Of a DNA stretch of 4,079 bases, positions 1 to 4,079 are shown piece by piece. The notes below the pieces were generated by a model. It saw nothing but the letters and a program-made list of their open reading frames with translations, did not search any database and was not told where the DNA came from. The position numbers and the translations under genes were made by a program. The DNA lies in the IMG/VR virus record IMGVR_UViG_2671180680_000011; one strand, written 5' to 3'. This DNA comes from a virus. Taxonomy: Duplodnaviria > Heunggongvirae > Uroviricota > Caudoviricetes. Each line of letters opens with the position of its first letter. The stretch's first letter is position 1.

Positions 1-47
1 AATATCTCCCCGGCAGCCTTCAGGGAAAAATATCATCAGATGGCTGC

Positions 48-401
48 TTAAAAAAAGAACAAATGGTAGTGTCCGCTATTGCCAGTACACCTCAATTGCT
101 CTGCGGCTTCGCTCAGAGCTGGCGTATGTTCCCGGCCTACTGATTCACACAGGTAATCAACGAAACCGGACACCAGTTTTCGTTCGCGAGGCGTGATCGC
201 CCCACCGACCGGAGTCCAGTAATCGAAACCCAGTTGCAGGAGTTTGAAAAAACGCTTGTGGAATGCGTAGTTACACACACGCTTAAAGTCTGCGTGTATC
301 CACTCACCTATTTTGATTTGATGCAGAAAATCGCAACTCTCCGGCGTCGCCGGGAGAAGTAATCCGGAAGAGGTTTGTTTGACCAGTTGTATATGTGCCA
401 T
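48..401 (-). CDS. Hypothetical protein, 117 aa from the ATG at 401 (alternative 131-aa form from a TTG at 443); second gene of a two-gene operon
   Basis: Long ORF on the minus strand. The internal ATG at 401 is preceded by GGAGA about 6-7 nt upstream; the ORF-track start at 443 is a TTG overlapping the upstream stop. No family recognised (sequence contains FDYWTPVGG and a Cys/His-rich C-terminus). Confidence 0.5.
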   Translation of the reverse strand: MAHIQLVKQTSSGLLLPATPESCDFLHQIKIGEWIHADFKRVCNYAFHKRFFKLLQLGFDYWTPVGGAITPRERKLVSGFVDYLCESVGREHTPALSEAAEQLRCTGNSGHYHLFFF

Positions 402-846: not shown

Positions 847-901
847 AATAAACAACAAAAAACCCGCCGAAACGCTGAGAGATCACAGCGATGGGCGGGT
901 T
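847..901 (-). terminator. Rho-independent terminator for the hok/mok transcript
   Basis: Minus-strand RNA forms an 8-bp outer stem (861-868 with 894-901) around an inner 5-bp stem (873-877 with 886-890), followed by a U-rich tract (complement of plus 847-860, AATAAACAACAAAA). Confidence 0.55.
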
Positions 902-940
902 AAGTGCGGGTGCGTTGAGGATGCCTGACACATCAGAGGT

Positions 941-976: not shown

Positions 977-1132
977 TTACTTCCTGGATTCGTAGTCTAC
1001 GAAGACAGCGACCTCCGTCTGGCCGGTTCGGATTCGTACCTCACAGAGGTCTTTCCTCGTTACCAGTGCCGTCACTATGACGGTTAAACAGATGACGATC
1101 AGGGCGATTAACATCGCCTTTTGCTGCTTCAT
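977..1132 (-). CDS. hok: Hok/Gef-family type I toxin, 51 aa, small membrane peptide
   Basis: Translation MKQQKAMLIALIVICLTVIVTALVTRKDLCEVRIRTGQTEVAVFVDYESRK closely matches chromosomal Hok/Gef/RelF toxins as recalled (single TM helix, conserved R-K-x-L-C-E motif); AAGGAG Shine-Dalgarno about 7 nt upstream of the ATG at 1132. Confidence 0.85.
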   Translation of the reverse strand: MKQQKAMLIALIVICLTVIVTALVTRKDLCEVRIRTGQTEVAVFVDYESRK

Positions 1133-1189
1133 AGCCTGCTTCTCCTTGCCTTTCGGCATGTAAGAGGCTAACCTACATGTGCAAAGCAT
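977..1189 (-). CDS. mok: mok-like reading frame (in-frame N-terminally extended ORF covering hok)
   Basis: ATG at 1189 with GAGG about 8 nt upstream; the extension MLCTCRLASYMPKGKEKQA resembles the extension of chromosomal mok frames as recalled. Confidence 0.5.
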   Translation of the reverse strand: MLCTCRLASYMPKGKEKQAMKQQKAMLIALIVICLTVIVTALVTRKDLCEVRIRTGQTEVAVFVDYESRK

Positions 1190-1245
1190 GAAATTGGCCT
1201 CAGATTAATGTTAAGCGTCTTGCCGGACGCGTAATGTTAACTGGG
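1175..1245 (+). ncRNA. sok: Putative sok-like antisense RNA covering the mok start; coordinates approximate
   Basis: Position inferred from hok/sok architecture. Weak plus-strand promoter candidate TTGCCT (1146-1151), 17-nt spacer, TAACCT (1169-1174); hairpin 1215-1230 downstream. No clean terminator seen. Confidence 0.2.
1206..1240. repeat. 9-bp direct repeat TAATGTTAA (1206-1214 and 1232-1240) flanking a hairpin (GCGTC 1215-1219 with GACGC 1226-1230) in the hok leader/sok region
   Basis: Exact repeat and inverted repeat read directly from the sequence; function unknown. Confidence 0.3.
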
Positions 1246-1308
1246 GCTTTTCTCTATCTGCCTTTTGGTGTTCATGCCTGAAGCAGATAGCCTCAAGCAC
1301 CCGCAGTC

Positions 1309-1338
1309 ATTCTACTTACCTCGCCAATATGAAATCAA
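1309..1338 (-). promoter_or_regulatory. Putative sigma70 promoter for hok/mok mRNA (TTGATT, 18-nt spacer, TAGAAT)
   Basis: Read on the minus strand: -35 at plus 1333-1338, -10 at plus 1309-1314; predicts a leader of about 110 nt before mok and a transcript of about 450 nt ending at the 847-901 terminator. Lies immediately 3' of the QueH-like stop. Confidence 0.35.
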
Positions 1339-1359: not shown

Positions 1360-2046
1360 TCACTCCTTCTCTTCTTTACCGTAGTGGAGTTGACCAATTT
1401 TGATAAGAGGGCGTCCCTGAGATTTGCGGTGTAGATTGGTATCGCGCAGAGAATACACACAGCCACAATATTCCTGCTGATAGAATTTTTCGCGCTTGCT
1501 GATTTCAATCATACGGGACGAGCCGCCCTGCTTGCGCCAGTTATAATCCCAGTACACCATGCCCGGATAATGCGCGACGGCTCGCCGCCCACAGTCGTTA
1601 ACCTGCTGCATATTTTTCCAGCGTGAAATGCCCAGTGAACTGCTGATCACACTGAAACCATTTTCAGCGGCGTACAGCGCTGTCCGCTCAAAACGCATGT
1701 CAAAACACATGGTGCAACGGATCCCTCGTTCGGGCTCCCATTCCATTCCTTTGGCTCGTTCAAACCAGTTGTCTGTGTCGTAATCAGCATCAATAAACGG
1801 CACGCCGTGTTGTTCAGCAAAGCGAATATTCTCATCCTTACGAATTAAATACTCTTTCTGAGGATGAATGTTCGGGTTGTAGAAAAAGATGGTGTAGTCG
1901 ATTCCCGAGGCCTGAAGCGCCTCCATCACCTCACCGGAACATGGAGCACAGCAAGAGTGCAGTAGTAGTTTGTTTGCCCCGTTTGGGAGCTCCAATTTGG
2001 GCCGTTTGAAATCAGCAACTGTCATAAATATGTTTATTGGGGTCAT
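1360..2046 (-). CDS. queH: DUF208/QueH-family protein (epoxyqueuosine reductase-like, Fe-S), 228 aa
   Basis: Contains the family-typical motifs [38 protein letters not shown] and YCGCVYS. Start is uncertain: ATG at 2046 or 2025, neither with a strong Shine-Dalgarno. Stop TGA at 1360-1362. Confidence 0.8.
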
Positions 2047-2830: not shown

Positions 2831-2866
2831 TGAAGTGGCACACTGAATTTGGCCACCTGAACAGAG
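2831..2866. repeat. Left terminal inverted repeat (IRL) of the IS911-like element
   Basis: TGAAGTGGCACACTGAATTTGGCCACCTGAACAGAG; first 8 nt and the GGCCACC core match the reverse complement of the right end. Confidence 0.8.
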
Positions 2867-2902
2867 GTGATATGCTCACCTCAGAACAACACAGGTGCTC
2901 CA

Positions 2903-4079
<1,177 letters not shown>

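What the first reader, a model, noticed from the sequence alone, without database searches (positions are those of the whole stretch)
1140..1250. sok antisense RNA is not clearly identifiable; unusual direct repeat flanks a hairpin where it should be
Where a Sok-like RNA is expected on the plus strand, the promoter candidate is weak (TTGCCT, 17 nt, TAACCT) and there is no clean intrinsic terminator. Instead there is a 9-bp direct repeat TAATGTTAA (1206-1214 and 1232-1240) flanking a 5-bp stem hairpin (1215-1230). This may be a degenerate or divergent antitoxin RNA, or a structural element of the hok leader.
Basis: seen in the sequence. Interest (0 to 1): 0.35.

Follow-up and report, generated by a model that had tools for sequence, protein, structure and literature searches.

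The report
Ordinary Sok antitoxin RNA terminator hairpin
The repeat-flanked hairpin is the transcription-terminator stem-loop of a normal, readily identifiable Sok antitoxin RNA of the prophage hokW/hokD type, the same element found in a published, experimentally tested locus, so the finding is ordinary.

Summary
TAATGTTAA occurs at 1206-1214 and 1232-1240, flanking the hairpin GCGTC-TTGCCG-GACGC (1215-1230). The interpretation that sok cannot be identified is wrong.

The interval aligns base-for-base with R1 Sok, K-12 SokC/SokB and SokW of Sakai prophage 5. The promoter TTGCCT-17-TAACCT is identical in Sp5, where mutating TAACCT abolished antitoxin activity and a northern probe detected the RNA (PMC8621323).

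By homology, Sok runs from G1181 to about 1251-1257 (71-77 nt). The two repeat copies pair with each other, because TTAA-TG-TTAA is a quasi-palindrome closed by two G·U pairs. They form the middle 9 bp of a 22-bp interrupted hairpin (1197-1247, -26.5 kcal/mol) followed by CUUUUCUCU. That hairpin is the terminator.

The 52-nt hairpin is the majority form: 112 of 128 loci in my pattern-selected sample, and also present in Kluyvera. It is an elongated version of the 29-41-nt hairpins of SokB, SokC and R1. In Kluyvera ascorbata the repeat has decayed but the helix is kept through two compensatory pairs. No empty insertion site was found.

By-product: the Sok 5' tail (1175-1195) is about ten-fold more variable than the hairpin.

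The parts
1146..1151 (+). Sok promoter -35 hexamer TTGCCT (overlaps the hok Shine-Dalgarno region on the other strand)
   Evidence: It aligns with TTGCGC of R1 Sok and is conserved in all relatives. Spacing to the -10 box is 17 nt.
1169..1174 (+). Sok promoter -10 hexamer TAACCT
   Evidence: It is identical in Sp5 sokW. Primer YO-421 of PMC8621323 changes TAACCT to GAGCCG in the 'pro-less' construct, which loses antitoxin activity. The hexamer is TAACCT or TAATCT in 39 of 39 unique relatives.
1181..1257 (+). Predicted Sok antitoxin RNA (71-77 nt; 3' end between about 1251 and 1257)
   Evidence: Ends were transferred from the RefSeq sokC ncRNA feature (L005 453-511) by alignment. The paper gives 71 nt for sokW. 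Northern probe YO-592 is complementary to the Sp5 equivalent of window 1181-1210.
1181..1195 (+). Single-stranded 5' tail of Sok (target-recognition region); covers the mok start codon (1187-1189 on the - strand)
   Evidence: It is unpaired in the fold of 1181-1257. Column diversity is 0.30 over 1175-1195 against about 0.03 in the flanks.
1197..1247 (+). Sok terminator hairpin, 22 bp in three helical segments (7 + 9 + 6 bp) separated by single unpaired bases at 1204, 1214 and 1231. ViennaRNA also adds a G1196.U1248 pair that uses the first U of the tail.
   Evidence: Energy is -26.5 kcal/mol on the + strand (52 nt) or -28.1 (53 nt), against -17.6 to -17.8 for the complement. 96-98% of cells are paired in 22-39 unique relatives.
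1206..1214 (+). Direct-repeat copy 1, TAATGTTAA; bases 1205-1213 form the 5' arm of the middle 9-bp helix
   Evidence: It pairs with 1232-1240 through U-A and A-U pairs plus a tandem U.G/G.U.
1215..1230 (+). Apical hairpin GCGUC(U)-UGCC-(G)GACGC, the lineage-specific tip of the terminator stem
   Evidence: It appears as a 16-nt insertion relative to the Rfam model. It is absent from hokC, hokB and PPompW. The G1215-C1230 pair becomes A-U in Kluyvera ascorbata.
1232..1240 (+). Direct-repeat copy 2, TAATGTTAA; 3' arm of the middle helix
1248..1255 (+). U-rich tail UUUUCUCU after the hairpin (the intervening C1247 belongs to the basal stem, giving CUUUUCUCU)
   Evidence: The sequence after GGGG is the same as in annotated SokC...GGGGCUUUUCUCUAU.
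977..1132 (-). hok toxin gene (51 aa plus stop), annotated hokD in RefSeq
   Evidence: Pfam PF01848 HOK_GEF, 81 bits. The RefSeq feature lies at the same position in NZ_CP065615.1.
977..1189 (-). mok reading frame (70 aa) overlapping hok. Its AUG (1189-1187) and GAGG Shine-Dalgarno (1201-1198) lie inside the Sok-complementary region.
   Evidence: ORF list; sequence read directly.
1127..1302 (-). hok mRNA 5' leader (tac hairpin, the hairpin complementary to the Sok terminator, the Sok-target hairpin, the hok SD hairpin)
   Evidence: Rfam RF01794, 117 bits against a gathering score of 59, full length 1-157.
1309..1338 (-). hok promoter candidate TTGATT-18-TAGAAT
   Evidence: Consensus scan. It ends 7 nt upstream of the 5' end of the Rfam match.
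908..920 (-). fbi element (CCUCAACGCACCC) complementary to the hok mRNA 5' end GGGUGCUUGAGG
   Evidence: RNAduplex of mRNA bases 1-30 against the 3' UTR gives -29.3 kcal/mol.
857..899 (-). hok mRNA terminator (CCCGCC...GGCGGG followed by UUUUUU)
   Evidence: Read from the sequence. The scanner did not list it.

Best explanation
The interval encodes a canonical Sok antisense RNA of the hokW/hokD (prophage) subfamily. Transcription starts about 7 nt after the -10 box TAACCT, near G1181, and runs antisense across the mok start codon (1187-1189) and the mok Shine-Dalgarno sequence (1198-1201). It stops at a long interrupted hairpin (1197-1247) followed by CUUUUCUCU. The two TAATGTTAA copies are the two arms of the middle 9-bp helix of that hairpin. 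TTAA is its own complement, and the central UG of one arm pairs with the central UG of the other through tandem G.U pairs, so an RNA inverted repeat reads as a DNA direct repeat. The 5-6-bp GC hairpin between the copies is the tip of the same stem. The about 15-nt unpaired 5' tail starts pairing with the hok mRNA. The duplex blocks mok translation, and therefore the coupled hok translation, and is a substrate for RNase III, as in R1 hok/sok. Shown here: the homology, the fold, the conservation and the full hok/mok/fbi architecture. Shown by others on a 93%-identical locus with the same promoter hexamers and the same hairpin: transcription, antitoxin activity and promoter dependence. [quoted passage not shown]
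For: Position-for-position alignment with Sp5 sokW, K-12 sokC and sokB, and with R1 Sok by inspection; my recalled R1 sequence matches 2709 plasmid records at 99% identity or more. RefSeq sokC ends transfer to 1181-1257. PMC8621323 reports a 71-nt sokW, a -10 mutation (primer YO-421) that abolishes protection, rescue by a fragment equal to window 1129-1285 (primers YO-406 and YO-541), and northern detection with YO-592. Window 1198-1262 is identical to Sp5. The fold is -32.5 kcal/mol with z = -4.9. All 22 pairs are standard on the + strand, whereas 4 are non-standard on the - strand. The hairpin is conserved in 112 loci, with 96-98% of cells paired. Kluyvera ascorbata keeps the helix (-27.4 kcal/mol) through G-C to A-U and A-U to U-G double changes while the repeat decays to 6 of 9 identities. 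The locus is complete: Hok domain, mok, Rfam leader and tac/fbi pairing.
Against: There are no transcript data for this strain. The promoter matches only 4 of 6 and 3 of 6 consensus positions, and the scanner reports neither a promoter nor a terminator on this strand. The U tract is interrupted (UUUUCUCU). Within the extended class there is almost no covariation: 13 of 22 pairs and 12 of 22 never vary, and the 2 double changes come from a single sequence and are reached by 24 of 500 shuffles. Support for the helix therefore rests mainly on conservation and thermodynamics. The same DNA also encodes part of the hok leader, so conservation cannot be assigned to one strand only.
Confidence: 0.9

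Rival explanations
1. The hairpin is selected mainly as a structural element of the hok mRNA leader (- strand). It would be a spacer helix between the tac hairpin and the Sok-target hairpin whose basal stem sequesters the mok Shine-Dalgarno GAGG, and its presence in Sok would be a passive consequence of antisense overlap.
For: The Rfam model, which is in hok-sense orientation, includes this helix. The 3' arm of the - strand basal stem contains the mok SD (1201-1198; sequence). The G-to-A variant at window 1215 (4 of 39 unique sequences, 3 of 22) gives an A.C mismatch in Sok but a G.U pair in hok mRNA.
Against: On the - strand 4 of the 22 pairs are C.A or A.C mismatches (mean 4.5 across variants, against 0.9 on the + strand), and the helix is about 9-10 kcal/mol weaker. 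The same asymmetry holds for SokC, SokB, R1 and PPompW, which points to the Sok strand as the better-folded one. The two readings are not mutually exclusive; both RNAs probably use the helix.
Confidence: 0.3
2. The 9-bp direct repeat is a target-site duplication, and the 17-bp palindrome between the copies is the footprint of a small mobile element or palindromic insertion in the loop of an ancestral short Sok hairpin.
For: There is a perfect 9-bp repeat flanking a palindromic insert. Related loci have hairpins about 20 nt shorter. The Rfam alignment shows a clean 16-nt insertion. Another locus (L253) carries a 16-nt tandem duplication at the same site, so the site is prone to length change.
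Against: No empty site (CCTCAGATTAATGTTAACTGGGG) was found. The only 3 viral loci with the same basal stem and a shorter hairpin have different upper stems. Removing one repeat copy plus the insert would leave a 6-bp stem with an 11-nt loop, a poor terminator. The repeat arms pair with each other, which a target duplication would do only by accident. In Kluyvera the repeat decays while the helix is kept. No IS-like ends are evident.
Confidence: 0.05
3. The locus carries a degenerate, non-functional Sok (weak promoter, no terminator), like the decayed chromosomal hok loci of E. coli K-12.
For: The consensus scans are negative. RefSeq annotates only hokD here, with no mok or sok feature. K-12 hokD does lack this region: homology stops at about window 1146 (hits H27-H29).
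Against: Promoter hexamers and hairpin are identical to the functional Sp5 sokW. The hairpin is as conserved as the hok coding sequence (diversity 0.029 against 0.032). All hok mRNA elements are intact.
Confidence: 0.04

Closest known systems
sokW of the hokW-sokW type I toxin-antitoxin locus of Sakai prophage 5 / phage VT2-Sakai (Takada et al. 2021, PMC8621323)
   Same: Same position and strand relative to hok and mok. The -35 and -10 hexamers are identical, and the sequence is identical from window 1198 to 1262, which includes both repeat copies, the apical hairpin and the U tract. Overall identity is about 93% over the locus. The stated length of 71 nt fits 1181-1251.
   Different: 7 of the 23 bases between the -10 box and the hairpin (1175-1197, the recognition tail) differ. 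There is one difference in the promoter spacer (CATG against CACG). The Hok C-terminus differs, and the prophage context differs (Rac/lambdoid nin region next to queH here). The paper does not describe the secondary structure or the repeat.
SokC and SokB of E. coli K-12 (RefSeq ncRNA features b4413 and b4429)
   Same: Same architecture: a promoter overlapping the hok SD region, an unpaired 5' tail over the mok start, a terminator hairpin with a CCUC.../...GGGG base, and in SokC the same CUUUUCUCU tail. The Sok-strand hairpin is about 10 kcal/mol more stable than its complement, as here.
   Different: The hairpin is 31 nt against 52 nt. They have no TAATGTTAA repeat and no GC-rich apical hairpin.
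Sok RNA of plasmid R1 (parB hok/sok; Gerdes and co-workers)
   Same: The promoter TTGCGC-17-TATCCT aligns with TTGCCT-17-TAACCT. The hairpin CCUCGUGGUGGUUAAUGAAAAUUAACUUACUACGGGG contains the same UUAAU...AUUAA core and the same G.U-rich asymmetry. The mechanism (block of mok, RNase III cleavage) is taken from established knowledge of this system.
   Different: The sequence is only distantly similar outside the promoter and the stem base, and the hairpin is 37 nt without the apical GC hairpin. It is plasmid-borne with a post-segregational killing role, whereas the prophage copies are linked to phage release (PMC8621323).
hokD (relF) of E. coli K-12, the name RefSeq gives this gene
   Same: The Hok peptide and coding DNA are about 93% identical (hits H28-H29).
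   Different: The K-12 copy is truncated. Homology ends near window 1146, so it lacks the Sok -10 box, the Sok body, mok and the hok promoter. The window carries the complete regulatory region.

Membership tests
[quoted passage not shown] | Small hydrophobic toxin with a Hok/Gef domain | tested here: met
   PF01848, 81.1 bits against a cut-off of 22, residues 6-47 of the 51-aa product of 980-1132(-).
[quoted passage not shown] | An overlapping upstream reading frame (mok) whose SD and start codon lie in the antisense-covered region | tested here: met
   70-aa ORF at 977-1189(-) in frame with hok. Its AUG at 1189-1187 and GAGG at 1201-1198 lie inside predicted Sok 1181-1257.
[quoted passage not shown] | Conserved hok mRNA leader structure | tested here: met
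   Rfam RF01794, 117 bits (gathering score 59), model positions 1-157 of 157, on the hok strand.
[quoted passage not shown] | 5' end (tac) complementary to a 3' fold-back-inhibition (fbi) element | tested here: met
   GGGUGCUUGAGG (1302-1291) pairs with CCUCAACGCACCC (920-908). The duplex of the first 30 nt with the 3' UTR is -29.3 kcal/mol.
Sok antisense RNA | Antisense promoter at the conserved position (-35 in the hok SD region, -10 box 17 nt downstream) | tested here: met
   TTGCCT-17-TAACCT aligns with the R1, SokC, SokB and SokW promoters. The identical -10 box was validated by mutation in Sp5. The generic sigma-70 scan does not list it.
Sok antisense RNA | Unpaired 5' tail followed by one long terminator hairpin and a U-rich tail | tested here: met
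   In the fold of 1181-1257, at least the first 9 nt are unpaired (15 nt if the four A-U pairs ViennaRNA draws between 1190-1193 and the U tract are disregarded, as they must be for termination). A 22-bp interrupted hairpin follows, then UUUUCUCU. SokC, SokB and R1 fold to the same layout.
Sok antisense RNA | The RNA is transcribed, is short-lived, and represses hok through mok with RNase III cleavage | not testable with these tools
   Only indirect evidence: northern detection, rescue and partial RNase III/Hfq dependence were shown for the Sp5 homologue.
Rho-independent (intrinsic) terminator | A GC-rich stem directly followed by a run of U | tested here: inconclusive
   ViennaRNA gives a stable hairpin whose basal 7 bp hold 5 G-C pairs, followed by UUUUCUCU after the closing C1247. 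The simple scanner finds no terminator. I attribute that to the three single-base interruptions and the 51-nt length, but I did not test this.
Insertion footprint with target-site duplication | Related loci with an empty site carrying one copy of the duplicated 9-mer | tested here: not met
   The pattern scans of viral contigs returned no such site. The 3 loci with the same stem base have unrelated upper stems.

The most novel reading that the evidence does not exclude
Sok RNAs of this subfamily may evolve as two modules. One is a constant scaffold: the promoter plus the elongated 52-nt, G.U-rich terminator hairpin. The other is a hypervariable about 20-nt recognition tail, centred on the loop of the target hairpin, that diversifies so that the many hok/sok copies sharing one genome (up to 9 places per E. 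coli genome) do not cross-neutralise. The lineage-specific apical extension brings the stem to 22 bp, which I recall as roughly the minimal length of an RNase III substrate. It could give these prophage Soks a distinct decay or protein-binding property (RNase III, Hfq or ProQ) that ties antitoxin loss to prophage induction.
Probability: 0.3. Interest if true: 0.4.

Novelty: already known. Interest (0 to 1): 0.14.

Why it matters
It matters little as a discovery. The element is the antitoxin RNA of a well-known toxin-antitoxin family, and the identical hairpin sits in the experimentally studied hokW-sokW locus.

Its practical value lies in annotation:
- RefSeq labels this complete locus only 'hokD' and lists neither mok nor sok.
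- The Rfam family named 'sok' actually models the hok-sense leader, so its hit falls on the strand opposite to Sok.
- Consensus promoter and terminator scanners miss both Sok signals.

The contrast between the invariant hairpin and the hypervariable recognition tail is a tidy, testable lead on how multiple co-resident hok/sok copies might avoid cross-talk.

Tried and rejected
- **Target-site-duplication or insertion origin.** I scanned viral contigs for the same stem base with a shorter interior. One search was too unspecific: 120 mostly unrelated terminators, none in a hok context. With hok context added, the scan gave 3 loci whose upper stems are unrelated. No empty site was found, so I rejected this origin as unsupported.
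- **Covariation within the extended class**. The helix is almost invariant. Only 2 double changes occur, both from one Kluyvera sequence, and 24 of 500 shuffles reach that count. Covariation therefore cannot carry the argument.
- **RNAalifold on the Sok-target hairpin of hok mRNA**. It predicted only the 5 basal pairs. A named 12-pair structure is 92% paired but shows only one-sided (wobble) changes, so there is no compensatory evidence.
- **The family pattern on genome contigs**. It returned many chance hits in unrelated phyla, because 16 specified bases are too few for 596 Gb. Only 34 segments passed the hok-context filter, four of which (L266, L276, L351, L268) are artefacts of the hairpin regex, leaving about 30 enterobacterial loci.
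- **Chance.** A 9-mer repeat alone is not significant, but conservation and the fold exclude chance as the explanation.
- **My own notebook error.** I first called the insertion sequence IS150.

Full report
**What is in the window.**
The window is part of a lambdoid or Rac-like prophage of E. coli. Region 940-1345 is 100% identical to strain FDAARGOS_943, where the gene is annotated hokD.
- On the minus strand lie a 51-aa Hok/Gef toxin gene (977-1132; Pfam PF01848, 81 bits) and the overlapping 70-aa mok frame (977-1189).
- Also on the minus strand is a full-length match to Rfam RF01794 at 1302-1127 (117 bits).
- A promoter-like TTGATT-18-TAGAAT lies at 1338-1309.
- The mRNA 5' end GGGUGCUUGAGG is complementary to CCUCAACGCACCC at 920-908, the fold-back-inhibition (fbi) element.
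The locus therefore has every element of a complete hok mRNA. K-12 hokD does not: its homology stops near window 1146 (hits H27-H29).

**Checking the observation.**
All the stated features are there.
- TAATGTTAA occurs at 1206-1214 and 1232-1240.
- GCGTCTTGCCGGACGC lies at 1215-1230.
- TTGCCT (1146-1151) and TAACCT (1169-1174) are separated by 17 nt.
- The simple scanner indeed reports neither a promoter nor a terminator on the plus strand.
A 9-mer direct repeat within 40 nt is not rare by itself: 31% of dinucleotide-preserving shuffles have one, and the window has a second at 552/584. What lifts this one above chance is its structure and conservation.

**Sok is identifiable.**
The plus strand from 1142 onward aligns position-for-position with several known Sok regions:
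- SokC and SokB of K-12, which RefSeq annotates as ncRNAs on the strand opposite hok.
- The Sok region of Sakai prophage 5 (VT2-Sakai).
- The Sok region of plasmid R1, by inspection. My recalled R1 sequence matched 2709 plasmid records at 99% identity or more.
Transferring the annotated SokC ends gives Sok = G1181 to about T1257.

The hokW-sokW paper (PMC8621323) supports this on the Sp5 homologue.
- It states that sokW has 71 nt complementary to the hok leader, which fits 1181-1251.
- Its primers place its experiments on this sequence. YO-421 changes the -10 box TAACCT to GAGCCG in the 'pro-less' construct, which loses protection.
- YO-406 and YO-541 delimit a rescuing fragment equal to window 1129-1285.
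- Probe YO-592 is complementary to the Sp5 equivalent of 1181-1210 and detects the RNA on northern blots.
Sp5 and the window are identical in both promoter hexamers and from 1198 to 1262. The promoter that looks weak by consensus is thus the functional Sok promoter.

**What the repeat and hairpin are.**
RNA 1178-1262 of the plus strand folds into one long interrupted hairpin (-32.5 kcal/mol, z = -4.9). It has three helical segments:
- a basal helix GCCUCAG/CUGGGGC, 7 bp (1197-1203 with 1241-1247);
- a middle helix UUAAUGUUA/UAAUGUUAA, 9 bp (1205-1213 with 1232-1240);
- an apical helix GCGUCU/GGACGC, 6 bp (1215-1220 with 1225-1230) around the loop UGCC.
ViennaRNA also adds a G1196.U1248 pair that uses the first U of the tail. 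Single unpaired bases lie at 1204, 1214 and 1231, and UUUUCUCU follows the stem. SokC ends in the same GGGGCUUUUCUCUAU.

The two direct-repeat copies are the two arms of the middle helix. UUAA is its own complement, and the central UG of one arm pairs with the central UG of the other through tandem U.G/G.U. An RNA inverted repeat therefore reads as a DNA direct repeat. The missing terminator is this whole hairpin. I think the scanner misses it because of the three single-base interruptions, but I did not test that.

**Strand asymmetry.**
On the Sok strand all 22 pairs are standard. On the hok strand four of them become C.A or A.C mismatches, and the hairpin drops from -26.5 to -17.6 kcal/mol. 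An asymmetry of about 10-14 kcal/mol is also seen for SokC, SokB, R1 Sok and the PPompW prophage Sok. It is therefore a family trait rather than a peculiarity of this locus. The hok-strand version of the helix is nevertheless part of the Rfam leader model, and its basal stem contains the mok Shine-Dalgarno sequence, so both RNAs probably use it.

**Distribution.**
I collected loci with the pattern CTCCTTG-N(9-12)-GTAAGAGGC.
- 128 loci were pooled, almost all from viral contigs. 112 carry the 52-nt hairpin and about 16 carry short hairpins of 28-31 nt.
- In GTDB genomes the long form also occurs in three Kluyvera species. Other enterobacteria have 29-41-nt hairpins at the same place.
- Spans of the BLAST matches show the extension in the listed E. 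coli chromosomal and P1-like hits. It is missing from PPompW, where the matched stretch is 337 nt against 362 nt of query.
The arrangement is thus a lineage-specific elongation of a conserved hairpin, and it is the commonest form among the phage-borne hok loci I sampled.

**Helix or repeat?**
Within the long class the hairpin is nearly invariant: 96-98% of cells are paired and 12-13 of 22 pairs never vary. Covariation is accordingly weak. The most divergent copy, from Kluyvera ascorbata (L329), changes G1215-C1230 to A-U and A1213-U1232 to U-G. It keeps a hairpin of -27.4 kcal/mol while the repeat decays to 6 of 9 identities. This points to selection on the helix rather than on the repeat, but it rests on a single sequence, and 24 of 500 shuffles reach two double changes.

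**Origin.**
An insertion with a target-site duplication is not supported.
- No empty site was found.
- The three loci with the same stem base have unrelated upper stems.
- Removing one repeat copy plus the palindrome would leave a poor hairpin.
One metagenomic Enterobacteriaceae locus (L253) has a 16-nt tandem duplication at the same site, so local duplication or slippage is a plausible source of length change. The origin remains unresolved.

**By-product.**
Across 92 unique long-class loci, column diversity differs sharply by segment:

| Segment | Window coordinates | Mean column diversity |
|---|---|---|
| Sok 5' tail | 1175-1195 | 0.30 |
| Repeat plus apical hairpin | 1205-1240 | 0.029 |
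| hok coding sequence | 977-1131 | 0.032 |

The most variable bases (1178-1186) form the loop of the Sok-target hairpin of hok mRNA. That hairpin's stem stays 92% paired through one-sided wobble changes. Photorhabdus carries four tandem hok loci with near-identical hairpins (one differs at a single base) and four different tails. This fits diversification of the recognition region among co-resident copies. E. coli genomes hold a median of 2 and up to 9 matching places. A recent Hok survey states that it did not analyse Sok or mok.

**Verdict.**
The element is already known as SokW-type Sok, so interest is low.

Noticed in passing
window 1175-1195 (core 1178-1186): The stretch between the Sok -10 box and the hairpin (the Sok 5' tail, the mok start and the loop of the Sok-target hairpin) is about ten-fold more variable among 92 otherwise 90-95% identical loci than the hairpin, the promoter or the hok coding sequence (0.30 against about 0.03). 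Photorhabdus tandem hok copies show the same pattern. This suggests diversification of the recognition region among co-resident copies.
   Followed up: partly
window 1127-1302 (- strand); L005 402-554; L006 367-518: Rfam family RF01794, named 'sok antitoxin', matches the hok-sense strand. In K-12 this is the strand opposite to the RefSeq sokC and sokB ncRNA features, and the match spans 157 positions ending at the hok AUG. The model therefore describes the hok mRNA leader, not the 57-77-nt Sok RNA. A hit tells you where Sok is, but on the wrong strand and with the wrong ends.
   Followed up: yes
window 1197-1247, and SokC, SokB, R1 and PPompW equivalents: In all five Sok RNAs examined, the terminator hairpin is about 10-14 kcal/mol more stable on the Sok strand than on the hok strand. 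G.U pairs in Sok become C.A mismatches in hok mRNA.
   Followed up: yes
window 2831-4079: An IS3-family insertion sequence of 1249 bp (HTH_Tnp_1 and rve ORFs with a frameshift layout; terminal inverted repeats TGAAGTGG...; I recall it as IS911-like) interrupts a DUF977 prophage gene. Strain FDAARGOS_943 has the uninterrupted gene, and its sequence diverges from the window exactly at 2831. The window ends exactly at the IS end.
   Followed up: partly
window 1360-2046 (- strand): A prophage-borne epoxyqueuosine reductase QueH gene (Pfam PF02677, 220 bits) lies immediately upstream of the hok promoter.
   Followed up: no
L001 6001-6406 (NZ_CP065615.1): RefSeq annotates this complete locus only as 'hokD', with no mok CDS and no sok ncRNA. 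K-12 hokD proper is a truncated copy lacking the Sok and mok region (homology ends near window 1146). The shared name hides a functional difference.
   Followed up: partly
L253 (uncultured Enterobacteriaceae MAG), Sok hairpin; L261 3467-6578 (Photorhabdus luminescens): L253 has a 16-nt tandem duplication (CTCAGGTTGATGTTAA twice) inside the Sok hairpin, at the position where the window has its extension. L261 has four hok/sok loci in tandem at about 1-kb spacing.
   Followed up: no
window 1-50: The left end of the window also differs from FDAARGOS_943 (mismatches from position 4 onward). The window therefore comes from a related but different prophage or strain. Only 2 of 5126 matching E. coli records are at least 99% identical over 940-1345.
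   Followed up: no
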